Shown: piece after piece, positions 1 to 53,416 of the stretch
How positions within the stretch are numbered: the stretch's first letter is position 1
How the letters are laid out: every line of letters starts with the position of its first letter
Source: Octopus sinensis
Taxonomy: Eukaryota
Direction of reading: 5' to 3'
DNA length: 64,000 nt
NCBI RefSeq assembly: GCF_006345805.1
Contig: NW_021835955.1
Span: forward strand, 62,001 to 126,000
Notes under the pieces: generated by a model
Database searches by the model: none
What the model was told of the DNA's origin: nothing
The model's input: the letters and a program-made list of their open reading frames with translations, nothing else
Program-made: the position numbers and the translations under genes

Positions 1-781
1 CAACCATGTTGCCATGGGTTCAGTCTCACTGTACAGCACATTGGGCAATTCTCTTTCATTACAGCTCCATGCCAACTAAAGCCTTGTATATTATATAATT
101 GTCATTACTGTATTAATATATAAAATAATACAAGCAATTCATTTATTATTGTCCTGTAATAAACAAATTGAAGTTCGTATATGAAATTGATCTTTTTTCT
201 ACTTCAATTATTACATGATTTTTCTTATGAAATGCACACATACAGGAGAAGCAAATCTCTCTCTATATATATAATAACACTCTGAATGTGGTTCCTGAGA
301 AAGAGTAAAAGTAATTACTCAATCAATGATAGGTATTACTGCTAGTAAAATAATAAAGCAAAGAATGACAGTATATTTAGTGAGGGAGCACCATTAGAAC
401 AGCAGACAGTTTTTCTTGTGGTGAGTAACCGCAGTTGGCAACAGAAGAATGTTGAGTTGAACAGAACAGAAAGGTCAATTTAAATGGCATTGGGTAGCTT
501 AGCAATATTAGATAAGATTTCTTTTGAAACTGAAGAATAATTGTGAAATCTACAGAAAATAAAATAGTCCTCCATAAATCCATTTATAATTCACATCTCA
601 ATTTTGGAGACAAAACTATCTTAAAATCTCCAGTAGCAAACATAAGACTCCTTCATCAGATGTCTGTGGGAATAATTTATAGTACCCTTATACCATGGTA
701 CTACACCCACCCCATGGCTGTATTGTTAAAATGTTTGCTTCTGGACCTCAGGGTTTAGGTATCAATCCCACTGCAGGGCAC

Positions 782-1083
782 CTGATGAGAAACCAGTAAG
801 GTTCAAAAATCGATTAAAGTTGTTCATCATTTTATTATATCATACCTTGATATTGTATGGACTAGGATCCCTGGTTTTATAGGTTTTTATAGGGTGTTAA
901 ACACTTTTGGTATGCAAATTAGGTACTCCTTCATAGAGTAACTGCTGCATTTGTTGAGTATATAAACTCTTTGTTTGCTTGTTTCTCTGGAGATTGTCAG
1001 AATGATGTGAACACCTCTGATGAGAATGCAATAAGGTTTGAAATTTAAGGTTGTGCATCATTTTTTATCAGTTTGCAGAGAAA
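782..1083 (+). mobile_element. Penelope-like pLTR remnant with two tandem degenerate hammerhead motifs 235 bp apart
   Basis: CTGATGA at 782 and 1017, each followed by a similar helix II (...TAAGGTT), (G/A)AAA and A(A/G)GTTGT(T/G)CATCATTTT. Confidence 0.55.
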
Positions 1084-2064: not shown

Positions 2065-2335
2065 GAGTGTATGTGAGCATGTCTCCTTGTCTTCTGTGCT
2101 TCTGTTTCCTTGTCTTGACGTTCCACGATTGTTGTAAACGAGTCTCATGATCATACAAATAGTGTCATTCGTTTTCAATCTTCTACAAAAACATGTCCAG
2201 CCATGGAGAAATATTACTTTGCTTGAATATAGGGGCATGTTGGCAACAGGAAGAGCATCCAACTACAGAAAAATCTGCTTCAGTAAACTCCATCTGACCC
2301 ATGCAAGTATGGAAAAATGACCATTAAAAGATGAT
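2065..2335 (+). mobile_element. Older repeat sharing the RTE-type tail (family E)
   Basis: TTGGCAACAGGAAGAGCATCC...CCCATGCAAGTATGGAAAA...TTAAAAGATGAT. Similar copies at ~25000-25260+, 50390-50635+, 53425-53548-, 33740-33990-. Confidence 0.7.
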
Positions 2336-3309
2336 GGCTCTCATGGAAAATGTACTTATAATATAAACACTAAATCTTGTATTTAGTTCAAGCCATATCA
2401 CTGCTTTTAAAGAAATTCGGTATAAATATTTAATATCGACATATTTGTATATTACTTGTGTAGTGTAATGGATAAATGTATTGAAACCCTGAGGGTAAAT
2501 AATAAAAGTTTGTAATGTTAATCTCAAGCACATACACATAAGATCTGCTGAACAGAAGCAAACACATTACACACTGGCAGTCTACATGGCTATTGTCCAA
2601 TCTGTTAGAAATAGCAGCTAATTTTCCTCAAATCATACACATTTTAACCATCTCAAAAAGCAATAGCAAAGAAAAAAAACACATAGGTGTAGGCGTGGCT
2701 GCTTGATAAGAAGCTTGCTTTCCAACCACATGGTTCTGGGTTGAGTCTCACCATATAGCACCTTGGGTAAATGTATTCTAGTTATAGCCTTGGGCCAACC
2801 AAAGCCTTGTGAGTGGATTTGGTAAACGGAAACTGAAAGAAGCTAATCATATATATATATGTGTATATCTATGCATGTGAGTCATTGTGTCTGTGTTTGT
2901 CCTCCTCATCACTGCTTGACAACAAGTACTGTTGTGTTTATGTCTCTGTAACTTAGTGGTTCAGCAAAAAAGAACTGACAGAATAAATACCAGGTTTTAA
3001 AAAGAAATATGTACAGAGGTCTATTCATTCAACTAAAAGTCCTTCAAAACAGTACTCCTGCATTGCTGTAGTCAAATGATTGAAACAAGTAAGAGAATAC
3101 ATAAGCTTTTTAACTCTAGGCACAAGGCCTTAAATTTTTTGCAGGAGAGGGCCCGTCGATTAAAACTGGAACTTAATTTATCGACCCTGAAAGTATGAAA
3201 GGCAAAGTCGACCTCAATGGAATTTGAACTCAGAATGTAAAGACAGATGAAATACTGCTAAGCATTTTGCCTGACATGCTAACATTTCTGCCAGCTCGCC
3301 GCCTTTTTC

Positions 3310-3495
3310 ACATTACACAGGTTTATGTAGTGACAGTCGAGTTCCAGAGTCAAGTGTGGAACATGATTGTCACTACATAAACCTGATGACTGCGTAATGC
3401 ATGAAAGTACTAGTTTATTTCAATATTGTAAAATTGTAAAAATTGCAAATAATAAAACAGGGAAATCAGACTTCGTTAGAATTTCATTGATTGAT
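3310..3495. mobile_element. Second, left-truncated copy of the hammerhead-bearing palindromic element
   Basis: CAGGTTTATGTAGTGACAGTC...GATTGTCACTACATAAACCTG inverted centre. The right arm matches 52655-52750 plus 53316-53370. Confidence 0.8.
3377..3418 (+). ncRNA. Minimal type I hammerhead ribozyme motif (Penelope-like-element type)
   Basis: ATAAAC-CTGATGA-cTGCGtaaTGCAt-GAAA-GTAC-TA-GTTTAT: perfect 6-bp helix I, intact core, palindromic helix III (AGTACT), CUA cleavage triplet. Confidence 0.75.
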
Positions 3496-3580
3496 ATATT
3501 CTTCTATATACAGTCATGCAAACTTGGATATATATCTATATCTATCTCTGTATATGTATACATACATACATATATATATA

Positions 3581-3657
<77 letters not shown>

Positions 3658-3692
3658 TAGATAGATAGATAGATAGGTATAGATAGATATAT

Positions 3693-4005
3693 GTGGAGGC
3701 GCAATGGCCCAATGGTTAGGGCAGCGGACTCGTGGTCATAGGATCGCGGTTTCGATTCCTAGACCGGGCGTTGTGAATGTTTATTGAGTGAAAATACCTA
3801 AACCTCCATGAGGCTCTGGCAGGGGTGGTGGTGGTGATCCCTGCTTGTACTCTTTTGCCACAACTTTCTCTCATTTTTTCTTCTATTGGCCTGCTCCCTT
3901 AGTAAGTGGGGTGGCGTCATTTGAAGGCTAAAACAATGCAAAGCACATTGTGACCAGCGATGTGTAGCAGCATCTGATTGCCTGGTCGGTTACTGTGATC
4001 ATGGT
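3693..4005 (+). mobile_element. tRNA-derived SINE family C
   Basis: Head GGAGGCGCAATGGCCCAATGGTTAGGGCAGCGGACTCG...GGTTTCGATTCC with A and B boxes. Related heads at 1180-1462-, 44685-44935+, 52771-53066-, 53070-53315-, 59130-59470-. Confidence 0.85.
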
Positions 4006-4075
4006 GATATGACCTCGTGTGTACCATTGGCAATTTTTTTCCTCTGTCTTCCCTTCTCTGGATCTTTCCTTCTAT

Positions 4076-4110
4076 GTTTCCGACGAAGAGCTCCGCTCGA
4101 AACGTTAAAC
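4076..4110 (+). ncRNA. Minimal hammerhead motif, U4C core variant, within a ~200-bp pyrimidine-rich Penelope pLTR-like segment (~4005-4210)
   Basis: GTTT-CCGACGA-aGAGCtccGCTC-GAAA-CG-TT-AAAC: 4-bp helix I, 4-bp helix II, palindromic ACGT helix III. Confidence 0.6.
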
Positions 4111-5289
4111 CCTCCTTCTTCCTTTCCTGAGCGTCCAATAATACTATATTTGTTCCACGTCCTCATGTTGTTGTGTTTTTTTTTGTGTTTTCCTGTTTGG
4201 ATTAACTTTATATATATATATATATATATATATAGACAGACAGACAAATAGATACCGATATTTATATGACAGGTTTCAGCATAGTATCCAACAGGTAAAT
4301 TCCACTTACCATGTGTTGGTCTATTTAAGGTTTGCAGGACTAGACTCCTACCCAAGGTATGACTATTACTTTATATAATGCTTCTAACTGTAAGCTTTCT
4401 GGTCGTTGTCATAATTCTTATTATCAGTAATATCAAAATTAGCTAAATTTTGTCAACTTTTTTTTTTTCCTTTTTGTTGTCTGTTTTAACACCCAGTCAA
4501 TGTTCTGTACAAAGTGCTATGGAGAAAGAAAGCACCCTTGCAGAACTAGTGTCTGCACCTCAAACAAATTTGTTTGTATCTGTCTACAGCCTTTACATAG
4601 AAATTTAACTTCATAAATATTTGCTTGACTAGTTTTAAGTGAAATGTTGTTGGCCTCTATAATGTTTTACAATGTTGGTTTCTGGATTCAATGATATGTC
4701 ACACTGAAGTACATATATTATAATTTTTTTTCTTCTCTTTATATATTGCAATATATATATGCTCATGAGTATCCTGAGTTGAAAAATATTCCATTGCAGC
4801 TGTTTATGGTTGACTTATATTTGGATCTATATCAATTTGGAGAAAGAATTGCATTCGGAATTAAGTAAATTCACCTCCCAAAGTATATATTGGTTGTTGT
4901 AATATTGAGATAAATGAATAGCTGTATCCACAAAGAAATCTACTAATAGCTTTACTGTGTTATAAAAATATTGATACAATTACAAGCTTACAGATGCATA
5001 TGCACACGTTTTTGTGTTTACACATGCATACACACACACATGCATGCACATATGTGTATGTGTACATTTATATGTATGTGTGTGCGTATGTATGTATATA
5101 TACATTTATACACGTATGCTCACACATATACATCAACATGCAGAGTGTAAGCTACTTAGAGCAGTCTCTTTGATACAGAGCCTTGTTGATAACAATAACC
5201 ATTTTATAGCAATAACAGTTAATATTAACTGTGATTGTTGTAAGCGGCTCCCACTGTGTGTGTGTGTGTGGTTGTCTGTGTGTGTCTGT

Positions 5290-6412
5290 GTCTGTGTTAA
5301 ATTACTGTACCAGACTGTGAGATGAATGGAAACAGTTATAGCTCAATTGATATGGAAGAGAGTAGTGAAGATGTGATGCAGTTCAGTTCTGTGCCAGGAA
5401 GAAATATTACTGATTGCATCTTCCTATTAAAGCAACTGCATGAGAAACACACGAACCAGGATTAAGTTGCGGTACCTGGTATTAGTTGACCTGTGAATAA
5501 ACCTTCAGGAAGGGGTCTCTCACTCCTTAACTTGATTGTTGCTGAGGAAGCAAAATGTAGATGAATGGCCTTTGAGTGTAATACTAGCCATGTACAGAGG
5601 TGCTATCAGCTGGGAGAAAGTTATAAAGGAAAATTACCTTTCTCAGTATGTAGAAAATGAGTAGAGATGAATTCCTCATGTTGCATCTTCTGCAAACTAT
5701 GGACTCACAAGAGGTACAGTGGAATTGTGAGCAGATTAACAGAGAAAGCAGACTTTATATATGCCAAATGCACAGGAGCAATAAAAACAAATAGCATATG
5801 GAAATAGATTCTCTCAAATGCTTGGGAGGATTCCTAAAAGTAGTTGATAGCTTCTGAAACCTAGATGATGTAGTTAGCCATAGAAAAGGATGTCCTGAAA
5901 GGATAGTAGCCAAGTTATGAACATGTCGAAAAATGTTGACAATGAGGTCTTCTTGAGAGAGAAGGGCAGACTGTATGTTGCTTGTGTACAAACCACATTG
6001 CTATACAGTTGAGCACTGAGTACAGAGGACCTGCAAAAACTAGGAAGAAATTAAGTGAGCCTGCTCTATTGAATGTGCAATGCCAATATGCATGATTGAC
6101 AGACTAAAAATGTGTTAAGAGAAATCTGAGCATAAGAGGAGTTACATGTAGTGTGCAAGAGAGGAAAATGCATTGTTAGATGTATATGATATATACATAG
6201 ATGAGCACAGTTGTTTAAAAAAAGTGCTTATCACTTATGTGGTTGGAATTTAAGGAAGACAGTGACTTCAGAATATGTGGTGAAGATTGATCTCAGGATT
6301 TTGAGCCTCATTAAAGAGATGACAAAGTTTGAGATGACTGGAGAGATGCAAGGTTTCAAAAGACTTGCCCATCCATACTAGGATGGAGAAACTGATATTA
6401 AAATGTTGATAG
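5290..6412 (+). mobile_element. Highly decayed RTE-clade LINE 3' portion
   Basis: From 5376 reads MQFSSVPGRNITDCIFLLKQLHEKH...YLVLVDL, resembling RTE QFGFMPGRSTTDAIF.LRQL.EK...Y.AFVDLEKA. Ends CCATCCATACTAGGATGGAGAAACTGATATTAAAATGTTGAT, like the RTE-type tail of family D. Many stops and indels. Confidence 0.75.
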
Positions 6413-6552
6413 AGATGGAAACTGAAAATGTATTGTGTAAGCACATAACTCAATACCTTATCCGTATGTTCCTGTCAAGTCTACATCTATTGTTCTACCT
6501 CATCTCTTCATCATTTTTCTGTCTATTGTATTATATATATATTTCACTTTCT

Positions 6553-6729
6553 ACAGAAGTTATAGCCTGTGCTGATTTTTGATATGTTGTTTTGCATCCG
6601 AGATGCCAGATGTAAACAAACAATGAGATCGAAAATGAAAACAGGATCTTTTATTATATTGTTTGTTTAGATCTGATGTCGTGGATATGAAACATTGAAA
6701 CAAAAATCAGTGCTGGCTATAATTTCTGT
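6553..6729. repeat. Older imperfect palindrome (MITE-like)
   Basis: ACAGAAGTTATAGCC..CTGATTTTTG...CAGATGTAAACAAACAAT / ATTGTTTGTTTAGATCTG...CAAAAATCAG..GGCTATAATTTCTGT. Confidence 0.8.
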
Positions 6730-6865
6730 TGAATATCTGTAGTGATGTAAAGTGCACTGCTAACACAGTAGAATATAATGTTGATTTTTAAAAATCATTT
6801 AATATACTTTATAGCATATTATGTTTACATAACAAAATACTGCATCCCTACAAGTCATTAATATG

Positions 6866-6907
<42 letters not shown>

Positions 6908-10682: not shown

Positions 10683-11457
10683 CACAGGCGTAACAGAAGT
10701 AAATAGACACCCTCATAAAATATTGTTTTATGTTTATTTTTACTTGAAAAGGTTTATATTTTTTATTAATTGTCATTTTAATGTTTCATGTTCTATATGT
10801 GACTGTTTGATATCATGTACAAAAGAAGCCTTGGAACTATCAGAATTTTAAGGAGGTTTTATTGTGGGTCAAACTGAGGGTGGAAACCTTGGAATCTTGC
10901 TTTCTACAGTCAATAGAATGATTGTGCAATTCACCAGGGCCCTCTGACAGGACCCTTCTCTTGTTAAAAGAAGTGTGAAGGATCTTTGTTGCCATAGAAT
11001 GACAAGTTGATGTCAGTCCCAGAACAGCTGTCAGGTATCTCCACAAACTTGGTTACTATGGCAGAACACAGCTAAAAAAACACACAAGATTGGCTGGAAG
11101 AGGATGGCATTAAAAAGCTTCTATGGCCAAGCCAATCACCAGATATGAACCCTATTGAACATCTCTGGGGCATAGTAGACAGGACATTTCACAAAGATAA
11201 CAAGAAAGCATTCTCAATGGCAGATCTTTTGAGATTTCTGCAAGAAACTTGGTAAGAAATTCCTCAAGCGAATATTTGTCATCTGATCAGTTGCATGCCT
11301 AATTCGTCCTTGCATTGAAAAGGGTGAAGAGTATGTCTGTTAAATATTAGATATTCACATTGTAATAATAATTGACAAATAATTTGAATGAATAATTTCA
11401 AATTTAAGTAAATTTTAATTATTATAAGTGTGTTTATTTACTTCTGTCATGTCTGTG
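10683..11457 (+). mobile_element. Internally deleted Tc1-like DNA transposon with TIRs and TA target
   Basis: TIRs CACAGGCGTAACAGAAGTAAATAGACAC / GTGTTTATTTACTTCTGTCATGTCTGTG flanked by TA. From 11124 reads WPSQSPDMNPIEHLWGIVDR...ETW*EIPQ...LISCMP (Tc1 C-terminal catalytic-region motif). N-terminal ELSEF*GGFIVG remnant near 10830. Confidence 0.9.
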
Positions 11458-46168: not shown

Positions 46169-47106
46169 ATGTCCAGAGCATGGAGACCTGACGAGCTGGA
46201 TTTATTCGTACAAGCATGGGAGTGCGCCGGCGGAGATAGCCCTAGCGAGGTGATTGCGGCTGTGCTGAAGAGCAGAGGCTACAAGAGGACAGCAGCTCAG
46301 ATGGAGCGAAAGAGACGGGAATTTGTGCGCTCATATGCGCTTGTACGGTCGCACATTGGCGCACTTGATGCCATCTTTGAGAACGAGCGGGGCAAAGATG
46401 GCAAGAATGGAGATGATGAAAGAAGTCACCCCCACCTGGTGGACGCCCGGGAGGAGGTTTTGAATGAGAAACCTGCCCGGGAAGTGAACCCAGGTGCAAG
46501 TTCTCCAACCGGCAGCAAGGGCCATGGAGACGGAGAACCCGGTGAAGAGGTAGAGGGAGGAAGAAGAACTAAAAGAAAGACTGGAAGAGCTAAAGGAAAA
46601 GAAAAGCTCAAGCAGGACCAAAGAGTGAAACAACCAGGAATAGAAGTGGAACCGCAAAGGATGGAACCAAACAGCGCACACGGGTGTGTATATTCTACCT
46701 GAGAGGTTCCTGCTGGCATGGAAAGGAAGGTGCAGGCTGCCGCTTTGCACATCGGGGACCCTGCCACAGAGACACGAGGCAGATGGACAAATCATCAACA
46801 CAAAGAAAAGGGATGGACCACGCACCACCTGCTCCAAAGCGGAGGTACGCAGATGTTGTGCGCGCCACAAACAGCCAACATGATGTTGTCGAAAGAGCAG
46901 CTGCTGAGCAACAATCTTTTTTGTGCATGGCACAAAAGATTGTACAGCAGCTGACCTGGCTTCATCAAACCAAGCCCGCAGGTGGGACTACCCACTATAT
47001 ACCAGACCACCACAGCAAACAGACACAGGATGGACACTGCCGGCAACAACGTACACCTCACCTCGATACTCCTACTGAACATCAGAGGACTGCAAACACT
47101 CTGTAA
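46169..47106 (+). pseudogene. LINE ORF1, frameshifted: N-terminal Myb/SANT (trihelix)-like domain, charged linker, C-x7-C-x8-C-x3-H zinc finger
   Basis: ORF 46169..46702 begins WRPDELDLFVQAW...IAAVLKSRGYKRTAAQMERKRREFVRSY. An overlapping frame, open 46594-47106, contains CIFYLRGSCWHGKEGAGCRFAH and overlaps the ORF2 start by ~77 nt. Confidence 0.75.
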
Positions 47107-50026
47107 CAGGACAAAGATCCCGTTCCTGAGAGACTTTGTTGCATGCAATCAAGCCTTATGCATAGCACTTACAGAAACGCACCTGAAACCGGACATAGCA
47201 GATGCGGAGTTACACATACCACAGTATGCTGTACTACGGACCGACAGGAAAGAAAGGAGTCATGGAGGTGTTGCTATGTACATCCGTGAGGACCTCACAC
47301 CCCAGGTCCTCTTGTCATACTCAAACTCGGTGTGTGACACACTAATTGTACATATTAGGCAACTTGATGTAGTTGTGTGTGCTACATATCGCCCTCCAGA
47401 TGCCCCAAGCCATGTGGGCAAGTTTGAAGACTGCCTTATAAAAATAGAAGAAATTCTAACCACATTAGAACAACACATAGGTGTGCTTCTTATGGGAGAC
47501 TTCAATCTGCCCAATGTCAGATGGCCCGAGGGCCTTTCTCTCCCAGGAATGACAAGATGTGAACGAGGACAGGCGAGGTCCCTCCTGAACCTCATCAACA
47601 CCCTGTACATGGAGCAGGTAATACTCCAACCAACCAGGGCAGGTAACACACTGGATCTCTGCTTCACAAATGACATGGATCTCATCCATAATGTGAAAGT
47701 GACACCGACACTACTCTCGGATCACAACATGATAGAGCTGACCATGTATGGGCCAAAAGAGAGCACGGACATGCAGCCTACAAGAAACCCTCAAAATCTT
47801 TCCAGCTTGAACTACCATAAGGCAAACTGGAAACAAATTGAGAAAGAGATCCTCAAACAAAACTGGCCTAAATGTCTCTCCTCGCCAGACATCGACGTGA
47901 AACTTCAACAATTCATGTCTGTAATGCAAGCCATATGCTACAAATGTGTCCCAGAGAGAAAGGCCACTGTACACAAGAACAAAATCCCCAGAGAGAGGAA
48001 AATTTTAATGAGACGGCGTACAAAATTTTCAAATCGCCTAAACAAACAGATTGAAAGCAGTTAAAAGTCCCGCCTAAAAATAAAACTGTTGGAAATCGAA
48101 AAATGTCTGCAACTCTCCCATGAAAAAGAAAGAGCAGACAAAGAAGCCTGGGCTATAGAAAACATAAAATCTAACCCCAGAGCTTTCTACAGGTATGCCA
48201 AAGAAACAGCTACAGTGCACTGTAAAATAGGGCCACTCCTCGAAAAGGATGGCACACTTACAGGAAAACCAATGAGGGTAAGCGAAATACTGAATGAGCA
48301 ATTCAAGAGTGTTTTCACTCCACCCCTTGGGCATCTCCAAATCACCAATCCAACTGACTTTTTTACCACTGCAGATATAAAATCAGAGGCGGCGACGATA
48401 GATTACATCGATATAAAGGAAGACGATGTAACCAAGGCTATAGATGAAATGAAAACAGACTCAGCTACTGGCCCCGATGGATTCCCGGCAATTCTCCTAA
48501 AAGCATGTAAGAGAGTCCTAGCAAGACCACTGCAGTTCCTCTTTCAGAGCTTCCTTGCAGCTGGCAAACTTCCAGGAAAACTGAAGGAAGGTAAAATATG
48601 CCCCATTCATAAAGGAGGTAGCAGAGCGGAAGCCAAGAACTATAGACCTATCTCTCTGACCTCACACATCAGCAAGGTCATGGAACGAATAGTCAGAAGG
48701 AAGCTGATCACCTTCCTTGAAGAGAATGACTTGCTGCCCGACACCCAACATGGTTTCCGACAAGGGAGAAGCTGTTTAACTCAGCTCCTACAACACTATG
48801 ACTGGGTGCTGAAACGGCTGCTCAACCACTCAAATGTGGAAGTGATATATCTCGACTTTGCAAAGGCCTTTGATAAAGTCGATCATGGAATGATATGTCA
48901 CAAACTGCGTGATCTCAACATAGTTGGAAAACTGGGAGAATGGCTTCATGACTTTCTGAAGGATAGAAGTCAGGTGGTAGTAGCCAATGGGGCCACCTCC
49001 ATTAACACACAAATAGTGAGCGGTGTTCCGCAGGGCACTGTTCTGGGACCACTACTGTTCATAATGGCCCTCTCAGACATGCCCTCAGCCACGCAGAGAG
49101 CCACGATCACAAGTTATGCAGATGATACAAAAGTTTCACAGGCAATACAGAACCCTGAGGACACTAAACACCTGCAATGTGAGCTGGACGAAATATACAA
49201 GTGGGCTGAAAAGAATAGCATGCAGTTCAATGCTGGAAAGTTTCAAGCTTTATACTATCAGCATGCAAAACTGAATGCAATACCCAATGAATACACTGGA
49301 CCCGGAGGGATTGCAATCCCAGAGGCACAATCAGTGCGTGACCTGGGTATTCACATGAGTGATGACGCGACCTTTCATGTACATGTTGCTAAACTGACAA
49401 TGAAATGTAGACGGCTGGCTGGATGGATTCTTAGAACCTTTAGAACAAGAGAACAAGAAACCATGATGGTCCTCTGGAAGACACTTGTCCTAAGCCACTT
49501 TGACTATTGCTCTCAGCTATGGTCACCATCCAGTGTCAAGTTGATCACAGAACTTGAGGCGATCCAACGAAGCTACACAAAGAAGATAGCCTCTATGCAG
49601 AATGTAAGCTACTGGGAAAGACTCAAGAGATTAAAATTATATTCCCTGGAGCGTAGGTGGGAAAGATATGCCATAATATACATCTGGAAGATCCTGGAGG
49701 GAAGTGTCCTGAACTTTGGCATCGAGAGTTACGCAAATGCCAGAACTGGGCGCCACTGCGTGGTGCCTAGGACTCCAAACCTGCCATCAAGATGTAGGAC
49801 AAGATTCTGTGATAGCCTGGGCTTCCGAGGCCCACAGCTCTTCAATATCCTCCCGAAGAACCTGAGAGACCTGCATGGGGTGGATACAGATGTTTTTAAA
49901 ATGAAGCTGGATCTCTTCCTGTCAGGTGTCCCAGATGAACCAACTTCACGGCAGGAGGGGCAGATGAGGGCAGCTGCATCGAACTCTCTCATGCACCAAA
50001 TAGCAGTTGCTAGAAAGCCTCCATGA
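47030..50026 (+). pseudogene. LINE ORF2: apurinic-like endonuclease + reverse transcriptase, interrupted by a single in-frame TAA at 48062-48064
   Basis: APE motifs LLNIRGL, ALTETHL, GGVAMY, TYRPP, MGDFN, PTRAGNTLDL, SDH. RT motifs YRPISLTS, QHGFR, LDFAKAFDKVDH, GVPQGTVLGPLLF, YADD. ORFs 46982..48064 and 48089..50026 share a frame (IESS*KSRLKIKLLEIEK). ATG at 47030. Confidence 0.95.
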
Positions 50027-51844
50027 AGTGAAACCAAGTAGCAACACCAAATGGCGGTGCCCCAGCATGGCCACAGCTCATAAGCTGAAACTAGAATCAA
50101 TCAATCAATCAATCAATCATATATATATGTTTATTTATTTATATCTATATAATATGAATTATTTACATGTTTTTAAGTTATGAAACAATTTCTCATGATA
50201 TTAGAATTTACTTATTATTAAATAAAATTTTATCAAACTATTTTGCTGTCACTTTTTACTTCGGATGTATGTATGTATGTATGTTTGTATGTATGTATGT
50301 ATGTATGTATGTATGTATGTATGTATGTATGTATGTATGTATGTATGTAGTGTATGTATATAACACACACAAACATGGATGTGGGCGTATGTGTGTCTCT
50401 GCTAACTTGTTTGCAAAATACCATTCAAGCAAAGAAAGGTATCATTGTGTTGATATTCCATTATAACAGATAGTTCTGTAGCTCTGTACTTTCAAAGACA
50501 GTTGGAAGATACATCCCTTAGTTGAAAAACATTGTAAAGGTTAGCAACAGGAAAGGCTCCATGCAATAAAATAATGCTTCAATAAGCTTTCATCTGATCC
50601 GTGATAGCATAGGAAAAAAAAATGGACATAACATGAACAAGCATGTTCAGCTCAAGAAAAATAATTATCAGACATTTATGAAAAGATGTTATGTAAATGA
50701 CTGGCATATTTTACAAATCTTAGGGTTTATCAAATGTAGAATCATCCGACGAGGTTTGAACACGTATCAAAAAGGAATGAAACCAAATACTGTTAAGAGA
50801 TTTAGTCTACAAAGGCACCCTCTCTGGCAATCCATCACACTTCTTTCATATGAATAATAGAATAGTATCTTATTAGAAATACATCAGTATCTAGATTAAA
50901 TTTGTAATGATTGATCATGAATACATTTTATACAGTATCATTGTACTGAAGCAGATGTAATATTGGATATTACTGTTGAATACTAATTTGAAATAGCTAC
51001 CTATTTGATATATCTATTATGGTTCGCAAAATATACTAAGTATTCAACATCAATTTTACTACTGTCCTCAATTAATAACTCTAAATAAAAAATTAATTTC
51101 GAATTTTGGCACAAGGCCAGCAGTTTTGAGCCAGTCAGTGAGTTGATTACATCAACTCCAGTGCTCAACTGGGACTTATTTTATTAATCCCCAAAAGATG
51201 AAAGGCAAAGTCACCCCCAGTGGAATTTGAACTCGGAACACAAAGACAGAAAAATATCACTATGCATTTTGCCCGATCTGCTAACAATTCTGCCAACTCA
51301 CTAGCCTTGACCCTAAATAATAAATTATTCAGTTTGTTTTCAAGAATATACAATAGATTCAAAATGTGTGAGTTTCTATTTGATCCAGGTGTATCAAAGT
51401 ACAAAAATTGCTCGTAACAAAGTCAGTATGGCAGTGCTGATAAGCTGTATGAGTGTGTAAGGGTAGTGTAAAGATTTTATCATTTGTACACAATGTATCT
51501 CATACCAGGCAGATTTGACTTGGGAAGACCAGTGAAATATATTTTAGATTGGAAAGCAGTTAGAGCATCCAGTCCGGAATGTGAAAAGTTCATAATAGTT
51601 CATTTTTTTATAGGTAAAAGTATTAAAATGATCAAAATTGATCTGATACCTGGACTGCCCATTTAAGCTTATACCAGCTCAAATGATATAGTGCCTATAG
51701 CCATTTTTGATTTAGGTAGGTCTCACACCCCTACACTAAATGTTGGTAGAGTTTAGCCACCATGCAATGGACTCATAGTTGAGTGCCTGAATAACACCTT
51801 ATAGCTTCATCAAAGCCTTGAATATGAAGTATTATATATATATG

Positions 51845-52023
51845 TAGTATTTTAACATGTATAAGGAACCCTGTTTTGTCAAAAATTAGGTTAAAAAGTA
51901 TGGGAGTTTCTTATACATGGTTAGTATTTATAATTCCTTACAAAACCATTTTTCCAAATTTTAAGCCCCAAAATTAGGGGGCTACCTTATACATGTGGGT
52001 TCCTCATACACGTTATAATATAG
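51845..52023. mobile_element. MITE, Tc2/pogo-like, in TA context
   Basis: Imperfect TIRs TAGTATTTTAACATGTATAAGGAACC / GGTTCCTCATACACGTTATAATATAG, with internal repeated CTTATACATG and AAAATTAGG motifs. Confidence 0.6.
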
Positions 52024-52464
52024 TATATATATATATATATATATATAATATGTGATACATATATTGACAGACAGCCAGACAGATAGATAGACACACACAC
52101 ATATGTGGCTTTTCACACTTTTGCTTTCCTACAGGAGTATGGTTATTACATGAGCCTGTGAAGTTCATCATAGCAATACATAATGTTGGGACAATTGCAA
52201 TGATAATCGTAATATTAGTTAGTCTGAATGCATGAATACTTCTATAAAATTAATAACTATGAATGTACATCGATTCCTTATTCACTTTGAACACACTCCT
52301 TTTCATTGTTGCCCACAAAATGAACCAAAGTATGTGTATATTATATATATATGAATTATATAATATATAATAACTATAATATATACTCACATATAGATTG
52401 ATAGATATTTAGATAGATAGATAGATATCTGAGTTTTGTATGATTGCACATCAAAGAATATAGT

Positions 52465-53370
52465 AATGAATGAAATTCTAACACAGTCTTATTTTCACAT
52501 TTTATTATTTATAATTTTTACAATTTTACATTTTTACAATATTATATGGTTATTGTGATAAAACTAGTACTTTCATGTGTATGTAATCATCAGGTATATG
52601 TCATAGTAGTGACAGTAGTGTCCACAATTGACAACATGGTTGTCACTAATGCTACATAAACCTCATGACTGTGTAATGCATGAAAGTACTAGTTTTATCA
52701 CAATAAGTATATAATATTCTATTATTATAATATTGTAAAATTTGTAAATTTAAATTTTCTTTTTATTTATGCACCTTTTTCAAGCCTAGCCAGACTCATG
52801 GGCCCAGTTTCCCGGTTTCTGTGGCGTATGTGTTCCCCCCAGCTGTACAGGATGCCAGTCCATCACAAGAAGAAAGAAACAGGAAGAAAGGGTGTGAAAA
52901 GTTGGGGCAAAGGAGTACAACAGGGATCACCACCACCCCCTGCCGGAGTCTCATGGAGCTTTAGGTGTTTTTGCTCAATAACACACACCACACCCGGTTT
53001 AGGAATTGAAACTGCGATCCTCTGACTGCGAGTCTGCTGCCCTAACCATTGGGCCATTGTGCCTCCACTGCACCCTTTTAAAGCCTAGCCAGGCTCATGG
53101 GCCCTGTTTCCCAGTTTCAATGGTGTCTGTGTTCCCCAGATGGAGGGATGCCAGTCCATCGCAGTGTTACTCATTTTTGCCAGCTGAGTGGACTGGAGCA
53201 ATGTGAAATGAAGTGTTTTGCTCAAGAACACAATGTGTCACCCGATCCAGGAATCAAAACCACAATCTTACGATCATGATGCTGACACCTTAACCACTAA
53301 GCTATGCGCCTCCACAAAAATTGTAAATAATAAAATGTAAACATCAGACTACATTGGAATTTCATTGATT
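52465..53370. mobile_element. Palindromic element with two opposed hammerhead motifs; right arm interrupted by two SINEs (52771-53315)
   Basis: Left arm ...TTGTGATAAAACTAGTACTTTCATG...TCATCAGGT mirrors right arm ACCTCATGA...CATGAAAGTACTAGTTTTATCACAA. The arm resumes after the SINEs (AAAAATTGTAAATAATAAAATG...GAATTTCATTGATT). Same family as 3310-3495. Confidence 0.8.
52771..53315 (-). mobile_element. Two tandem tRNA-SINEs (family C variants) sharing the same 3' end
   Basis: GCACC(T/C)TTTT(C/A)AAGCCTAGCCAG(A/G)CTCATGGGCCC occurs at 52771 and 53070, each leading to a tRNA-like head. Confidence 0.85.

Positions 53371-53416
<46 letters not shown>

What the first reader, a model, noticed from the sequence alone, without database searches (positions are those of the whole stretch)
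3377..3418. Intact minimal hammerhead core with a palindromic helix III (dimer-type ribozyme)
Seen: a 42-nt motif with all conserved core nucleotides (CUGAUGA, GAAA, UA), a perfect ATAAAC/GTTTAT helix I, a 4-bp helix II above a C.U mismatch, and helix III reduced to the palindrome AGUACU. Established: minimal PLE hammerheads with palindromic helix III are reported to cleave as dimers. Inference: this is the best candidate for a still-active self-cleaving RNA in the window, and it would cut any host pre-mRNA transcribed on + if a partner copy is available.
Basis: partly seen in the sequence, partly recalled or inferred. Interest (0 to 1): 0.75.

Follow-up and report, generated by a model that had tools for sequence, protein, structure and literature searches.

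The report
Folded-shut hammerhead in Penelope retrotransposon remnant
This is a real but ordinary copy of the small self-cutting RNA motif that Penelope-type jumping genes carry in their end repeats, one of more than a thousand in this genome, and this aged copy is predicted to be folded shut by a neighbouring inverted piece and has no intact partner nearby, so it likely does not cut.

Summary
The motif is present as described and is not chance (1 of 200 shuffles). It lies in a 187-nt remnant (3349-3535) of the end repeat (pLTR) of a Penelope-like element. Longer copies run upstream into a decayed GIY-YIG endonuclease, and a younger sister family has a full-length RT+GIY-YIG element with this hammerhead in both pLTRs. 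Helices I and II each show a compensatory change between the families, so the lineage's ribozyme is real; the genome holds 1,200 exact core matches. 'Still active' is not supported. The copy is 8% diverged. Its C.U replaces the family's U.U. Core decay equals flank decay (18/213 vs 159/1853). An upstream inverted stub (3318-3346) is predicted to bury helix I and C3-U4-G5 in a -46 kcal/mol hairpin. The only same-strand copy found nearby, 49 kb away, has a changed core base. No host gene or transcript was shown. The scan reported this kind of motif before in other families and genomes, but not this sequence.

The parts
3377..3418 (+). Type I hammerhead motif of the PLE pLTR: helix I 3377-3382/3413-3418, core 3383-3389 and 3403-3406, predicted cut after A3412
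   Evidence: covariation with the sister family
3390..3402 (+). Helix II: C.U mismatch (family state U.U), 4 pairs including a G.U left by a C>T change at a CpG, 3-nt loop
3406..3411 (+). Palindrome A15.1-U16.1; loop-less helix III, self-duplex -4.8 kcal/mol
   Evidence: shared by old and young families
3349..3535 (+). Direct arm: 5'-truncated pLTR remnant of an old Penelope-like family, 88% identical to copy L009, starting near the family's 5'-end hot spot
3318..3346 (-). Inverted arm stub (93% identical to the same pLTR); predicted to pair with about 3357-3385 in a 29-pair hairpin of -46.2 kcal/mol that takes up helix I 5' strand and C3-U4-G5
3536..3680 (.). TA-rich microsatellite at the 3' end of the insertion (approximate bounds); likely the target site
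   Evidence: TA preference described in PMC8557442
52410..53413 (.). Second two-armed insertion of the same family: + arm motif 52656-52697 with G5>C at 52664; - arm motif 52593-52571 with broken helices I and II; + arm split by an unrelated insert

Best explanation
The motif is the hammerhead in the end repeat of an old Penelope-like retrotransposon family, left here as a short two-armed insertion, and this copy is likely inactive because it is predicted to be folded shut and lacks an intact partner. Shown: family membership, the link to a GIY-YIG endonuclease, a full-length RT+GIY-YIG sister element with two hammerhead-bearing pLTRs, compensatory changes between the families, neutral decay within the old family, and the inverted stub. 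Inferred: in the parent element the RNA likely starts about 70-80 nt before the cut site at a TATA/CCAAT-type promoter and is mostly reverse-transcribed uncut. The ribozyme would cut weakly, as a dimer and probably with help from the element's protein. In a + strand read-through transcript the inverted stub is made first and would capture helix I and half the core before the ribozyme can form.
For: Dispersed repeat: 626 candidates, 40 scored, best non-self hits 79-92%; 148 exact old-type and 1,200 broader core matches against controls of 0 and 1. Old-family loci L092, L087, L099, L095 carry decayed endonuclease (53-70% identity to the sister protein over the longer matches) upstream of the motif. 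Sister ORF of 718 aa hits RVT_1 (E 2.8e-6, below the curated cut-off) and GIY-YIG (E 5.2e-5, above it). L141 has direct pLTRs 4.3 kb apart, each with the motif. One two-sided change in helix I and one in helix II; 94% of cells paired against 20-41% when slid. Core 18/213 vs flank 159/1853 in UTR-selected copies; window copy 8.1% from majority, mean 8.6%; 5 of 51 copies are as intact. Ribozyme-compatible fold costs 18.4-25.3 kcal/mol with upstream context, 3.5 in isolation. 14 of 30 young copies begin at -78 to -82 and all 30 span the whole motif; 18 of 30 old copies begin at -75 to -60. In the Anolis element the hammerhead does not cut without protein and uncut RNA is the main template (PMC11167929).
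Against: Folding is a nearest-neighbour prediction without core tertiary energy, proteins or helicases. A transcript starting inside the stub loop would escape the hairpin, though the fold still costs 5.6-6.7 kcal/mol. In the BLAST-selected set the core is somewhat less diverged than flanks (15/384 vs 207/3447, P=0.11), so slight constraint is not excluded. Family-wide neutrality does not rule out one co-opted copy. Contig bases 136,001-154,426 were not examined for partners. No cleavage was tested.
Confidence: 0.85

Rival explanations
1. Still-active dimer ribozyme that cuts a host + strand pre-mRNA with a partner copy in cis.
For: All 11 core letters, 6-bp helix I and the palindrome are present. 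A double hammerhead of two isolated copies scores -11.2 kcal/mol against -7.2 for two monomers. Dimers of such motifs cut weakly in vitro (PMC4209133).
Against: The -46 kcal/mol hairpin. The same two copies have a better non-ribozyme dimer at -17.0. The only same-strand partner found is 49 kb away with G5>C; none in contig bases 1-62,000 or 126,001-136,000. C.U replaces U.U, the best-tolerated mispair (PMC3088659). No host exon among 150 candidate frames.
Confidence: 0.04
2. This copy is only a substrate: RNA of the young sister family, bound to its protein, pairs with 3406-3418 in trans and cuts after A3412.
For: The palindrome is shared by 1,200 exact matches. A natural young enzyme strand pairs 6+6 with the window's substrate strand at -9.8 kcal/mol, and the upstream hairpin covers only the enzyme half. 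In the young family 7 junction events fall at G1.1 against 0 of 14 and 1 of 6 hits at two control positions.
Against: 3412-3418 is predicted paired with downstream sequence (unpaired probability 0.11 or less). The arms are short and AU-rich. Five of the 7 junction events have microhomology that explains them without cutting; the 2 clean ones give P=0.26. Transcription of the locus is not shown.
Confidence: 0.04
3. The whole lineage's motif is a vestigial or structural RNA element that no longer cuts even in the parent element.
For: The usual G10.1-C11.1 pair is absent in both families, and a large young subfamily has U4>C. Nearly all young copies were copied uncut: 609 keep A17, and 30 of 30 sampled span the motif.
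Against: Core letters and palindrome are kept between families about 76% identical in coding DNA, while N7 and loop 2 change and the helices covary. U10.1-U11.1 and U4C occur in natural hammerheads, and U4C keeps enough activity in a viroid (PMC3088659). This rival is compatible with the verdict on the window copy.
Confidence: 0.2
4. Chance match to the hammerhead consensus.
For: The isolated 56-mer folds no better than shuffles (z=+1.06); no Rfam hit.
Against: 1 of 200 shuffles passes the descriptor; position in a PLE pLTR and covariation.
Confidence: 0.01

Closest known systems
Hammerheads in pLTRs of metazoan Penelope-like elements, subtype with a small palindromic helix III (Cervera and De la Pena 2014, PMC4209133; text parts 1-2 of 4 and supplement parts 1-2 of 3 read, figures not seen)
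   Same: Type I order, position in the pLTR, palindromic 15.2-16.2 region, mostly single or opposite-strand dispersed copies, weak stems.
   Different: Their consensus has one extra base after A9 and G10.1-C11.1; this lineage has a U on each side above a U-A pair. The text rows of their Fig. S3 include no cephalopod.
Neptune/Nematis-type EN+ PLEs (Craig et al. 2021, PMC8557442; passages read)
   Same: RT followed by C-terminal GIY-YIG, a CX4CxxC linker, CxxC within the GIY-YIG core plus two later histidines, pLTRs, inverted 5'-truncated arm, microsatellite targets.
   Different: Neptune versus Nematis not resolved; no tree was built against named references.
Poseidon element PAc of Anolis (PMC11167929; passages and second half of the main text read)
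   Same: Hammerhead near the start of the element RNA; copies derive mostly from uncut RNA.
   Different: Different PLE clade; in PAc the ORF starts inside the hammerhead, here it starts about 240 nt downstream (L141).
Natural U10.1-U11.1 and U4C hammerhead variants (Perreault et al. 2011, PMC3088659; section 8 and passages read)
   Same: The same two departures from the consensus occur in this lineage.
   Different: There they are rare single examples; here U.U is the majority state of both families and U4C marks a young subfamily. The window copy has drifted to C.U.
Metazoan non-LTR retrozymes (PMC7229834, passages; bioRxiv 10.64898/2026.07.22.740005, part 1 of 5)
   Same: Type I hammerhead that works better as a dimer.
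   Different: Retrozymes are short head-to-tail tandem arrays; this copy is single. The one 370-bp tandem array seen of this family has a broken GAAA.

Membership tests
PLE-associated type I hammerhead | Core CUGANGA, GAAA and UH between helices I and II | tested here: met
PLE-associated type I hammerhead | Located in the pLTR of an RT+GIY-YIG element | tested here: met
   old family linked to decayed endonuclease; full-length sister L141
PLE-associated type I hammerhead | Palindromic 15.2-16.2 / loop 3 | tested here: met
PLE-associated type I hammerhead | Compensatory changes in the helices | tested here: met
   2 of 10 pairs changed on both sides, 7 distinct rows from two related families, so two events
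Strict min-HHR consensus of Cervera 2014 | One extra base after A9, then G10.1-C11.1 | tested here: not met
   family has U.U, window C.U, above a U-A pair; filed as a variant, not as the strict consensus
PLE-associated type I hammerhead | Self-cleavage as a dimer or with protein | not testable with these tools
   needs in vitro assay; genomic junction excess at G1.1 is inconclusive
Neptune/Nematis EN+ PLE | C-terminal GIY-YIG with CX2-5CxxC linker and CCHH motif | tested here: met
   translations read against the definition; copy L132 has one linker cysteine changed
Neptune/Nematis EN+ PLE | RT phylogeny places it in a named clade | not tested
   no named reference sequences were fetched
Non-LTR retrozyme | Head-to-tail tandem units each with a hammerhead | tested here: not met
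   single copy; next same-strand copy 49 kb away
Rfam hammerhead families | Covariance-model score | tested here: not met

The most novel reading that the evidence does not exclude
The young sister element's RNA-protein particle acts as a trans-cutting hammerhead on the thousand-plus dispersed pLTR remnants that share its palindrome, A3412 among them, so that an active retrotransposon slices host transcripts at its own fossils, using a doubly non-canonical core (U.U under helix II, U4C in the youngest subfamily).
Probability: 0.04. Interest if true: 0.7.

Novelty: new member of a known kind. Interest (0 to 1): 0.17.

Why it matters
As found, it is one decayed copy of a known ribozyme class, and it shows that an intact-looking core says little about activity: in a dimer-type hammerhead a copy's core cuts its partner, and the inverted arm typical of Penelope insertions can shut the motif. 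The more useful lead is the young sister family. It has near-intact ORFs, a sharp 5'-end hot spot, a fixed U.U mismatch and a U4C subfamily, so it is a ready test of whether and when PLE hammerheads cut, which is still open.

Tried and rejected
Rfam scans gave no hammerhead. First upstream search hit an unrelated repeat and was dropped. Expression: no RNA holder listed; the one completed laying used contigs and is dominated by repeats, so it says nothing on strand or ends; transcription remains open. Host gene: 150 frames were sent to Pfam (148 of 193 filtered candidates plus 2 picked by eye; candidates in L149, L150, the LINE at 46-50 kb and a few others were left out). Hits were two DDE transposase pieces, three weak matches and a KH_PARP14 match that proved to be a decayed PLE RT fragment; short exons would be missed. 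The 100%-identical locus on C9036 shares its flanks and is likely an assembly duplicate, not a partner. CpG double-decay in helix II: G3394/C3398 co-vary (P=0.003, 83 copies), but the other pair does not (P=0.31), an unpaired control gives P=0.08 and copies are not independent; not used. A downstream 'decoy' hairpin on the 3' strand of helix I is not above shuffles (17, 29, 28, 46 of 200); rejected as a designed switch. Fossil cleavage signal at G1.1: P=0.003 for all 7 events, P=0.26 for the 2 without microhomology; inconclusive. Alignment A1 had two misplaced rows and was replaced by A2. Literature searches returned no paper on this family; subscription papers, Repbase/Dfam and bioRxiv supplements were not seen, and the File S1/S2 lists of PMC8557442 were not opened.

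Full report
1. Observation. A strict descriptor (6-pair helix I, 4-pair helix II) finds only this site on either strand; 1 of 200 shuffles gave any hit and none had a palindrome. Rfam does not recognise it, and the isolated 56-mer is no more stable than shuffles.

2. What it belongs to. The genome is 2.72 Gb. It is likely an octopus; that label comes from recalled repeat content and from earlier AI notes, not from a call that names the organism. The stretch 3300-3500 is a dispersed repeat (626 candidates, 40 scored). Many copies occur as head-to-head pairs. Copies with a direct upstream flank share about 400 nt more, and beyond that a decayed GIY-YIG endonuclease lies on the same strand as the motif in L082, L087, L092, L095 and L099. 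Searching with that coding piece found a younger family about 76% identical in DNA. Its copy L132 has an open frame of 718 aa with RVT_1 and GIY-YIG matches, and L141 is full-length, with direct repeats at 2335-2612 and 6611-6895 that each hold the hammerhead. The linker CX4CxxC, the CxxC in the GIY-YIG core and two later histidines fit the Neptune/Nematis definition in PMC8557442 (passages). Exact core patterns give 148 old-type hits (control 0) and 1,200 hits for both families (control 1).

3. The lineage's ribozyme is real. Between the two families N7 and loop 2 change, one helix I pair goes from A-U to G-C and one helix II pair from G-C to A-U, while the core and palindrome stay. This is two events on 7 distinct related rows, so the shuffle counts (6 of 500) are not probabilities. 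Both families have U opposite U under helix II, where the published PLE consensus has an extra base and G10.1-C11.1 (PMC4209133). Natural U10.1-U11.1 is described as the best-tolerated mispair (PMC3088659 section 8; its cited source not read). A young subfamily, including L141, has U4>C, which lowers activity in vitro but is tolerated in a viroid.

4. This copy. The direct arm 3349-3535 is 88% identical to L009 and ends in TA-rich microsatellite; an inverted stub 3318-3346 precedes it. The copy is 8.1% from the family majority, against a mean of 8.6% for 51 copies, and differs inside the motif at 3390 (family T, 37 of 50) and 3398. Five of 51 copies are as intact, so its state needs no selection. 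In 20 distinct copies from the 30 loci chosen by 3' UTR similarity (loci that did not cover the motif were dropped, and one row is a second arm), core positions differ at 18 of 213 and non-CpG flank positions at 159 of 1,853 (P=1). In 35 BLAST-chosen copies the figures are 15 of 384 and 207 of 3,447 (P=0.11), and merged 31 of 553 and 344 of 4,892 (P=0.25).

5. Folding in place. 3300-3440 folds at -52.9 kcal/mol (z=-8.3). The stub pairs with about 3357-3385 in a 29-pair hairpin of -46.2 kcal/mol that holds the 5' strand of helix I and C3-U4-G5. Forcing the ribozyme helices costs 3.5 kcal/mol in the isolated motif, 5.6-6.7 when the RNA starts at 3347, and 18.4-25.3 when the stub is included. On a + strand transcript the stub is made first, so kinetics would favour the hairpin too (inference). 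These are predictions without tertiary or protein effects.

6. Partner. In a double hammerhead the palindromes of two copies pair, so the core of one copy surrounds the cut site of the other (my inference from the strand order; the paper's figure was not seen). Cutting at A3412 thus needs another copy's core. The window holds one more insertion of the family at 52410-53413: its + arm has G5 changed to C (that G5 is critical is recalled) and its - arm has broken helices. No pLTR copy was found in contig bases 1-62,000 or 126,001-136,000; the last 18 kb were not fetched. Even two isolated perfect copies have a better non-ribozyme dimer (-17.0) than the double hammerhead (-11.2). Published monomers showed no cleavage and multimers little (PMC4209133), and the Anolis PLE hammerhead does not cut without the element's protein (PMC11167929). 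No host gene was identified, and transcription of the locus is untested.

7. How the parent likely works. Of 30 young copies that keep A17 (the first 30 of 609), 14 begin at -78 to -82 from G1.1 and all 30 span the whole motif. Of 30 old copies chosen by core pattern, 18 begin at -75 to -60. The hot spot lies about 30 nt after a TATA-like box with CCAAT boxes upstream, so it is likely the transcription start, and most templates were uncut. Against a clean 'never cuts' reading: of 16 young hits lacking A before G1.1, 8 are point changes and 8 loci (7 events) are junctions there, against 0 of 14 and 1 of 6 at two control positions. But 5 of the 7 have microhomology, and the 2 clean events are not significant. 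In the old family 1 of 12 such hits clearly starts at G1.1, and one more may. Low-level cutting in vivo is possible, not shown.

8. Comparison and verdict. It works like, and sits where, the known hammerheads of Penelope-like pLTRs do. It fails the strict min-HHR consensus at 10.1-11.1 and is not a retrozyme. I found no paper on this family, within the limits of that library; repeat databases and some supplements were not seen. Earlier notes of this scan describe the same kind of motif in other families of this genome and in other genomes, none by this sequence or place; they are unchecked and are not counted as support. Verdict: new member of a known kind, this copy probably inactive (0.85), interest 0.17. 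The boldest reading left open is trans cleavage of remnants by the young element (probability 0.04); the pairing is possible (-9.8 kcal/mol) but the target strand is predicted to be paired.

Noticed in passing
L141 (G000:C10:81392456-81400500), 2335-6895: Full-length young Penelope-like element: direct pLTRs 92% identical, hammerhead in each, ORF in two frames (451 and 777 aa stop to stop), U4>C in both motifs.
   Followed up: yes
L180-L209; L018 upstream of its motif: 5' ends pile up at -81 (young) and -70 (old) from the cut site, about 30 nt after a TATA-like box with CCAAT boxes upstream; likely an internal Pol II promoter (motif names recalled).
   Followed up: partly
window 4076-4110 (+): Hammerhead-like motif of another common repeat: U4>C core, extra A after position 9, 4-bp helix II, palindrome AACGTT, 4-pair helix I.
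   Followed up: no
window 782-830 and 1013-1051 (+): Two decayed hammerhead-like motifs with CTGATGA cores.
   Followed up: no
window 46955-50026 (+): LINE-type element with endonuclease-like and RT-like frames (369 and 653 aa) separated by one stop; identified by eye from the translation.
   Followed up: no
L170-L173 (G000:C4:128439829-128440962): 370-bp head-to-tail array of four old-family pLTR remnants with flanking host DNA; GAAA is broken, so it looks like a local duplication, not a retrozyme.
   Followed up: partly
L144:20-331 (-), contig bases about 51,600-52,500: Decayed RT fragment of another Penelope-like element, about 13 kb upstream of the finding.
   Followed up: partly
L159-L161, L164, L165: Fold-back junctions of young copies that fall at the 3' strand of helix I, where short inverted matches allow template switching.
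   Followed up: partly
L002 (G000:C9036:67462-70662): Near-identical duplicate of the window region including flanks; likely a haplotype duplicate in the assembly.
   Followed up: partly
window 4460-4500 and 415-426 (+): Splice-acceptor-like and donor-like sequences seen by eye; the frames after the acceptor have no Pfam match.
   Followed up: partly
window 11076-11252 (+): DDE_3 transposase fragment (E 1.3e-7).
   Followed up: no
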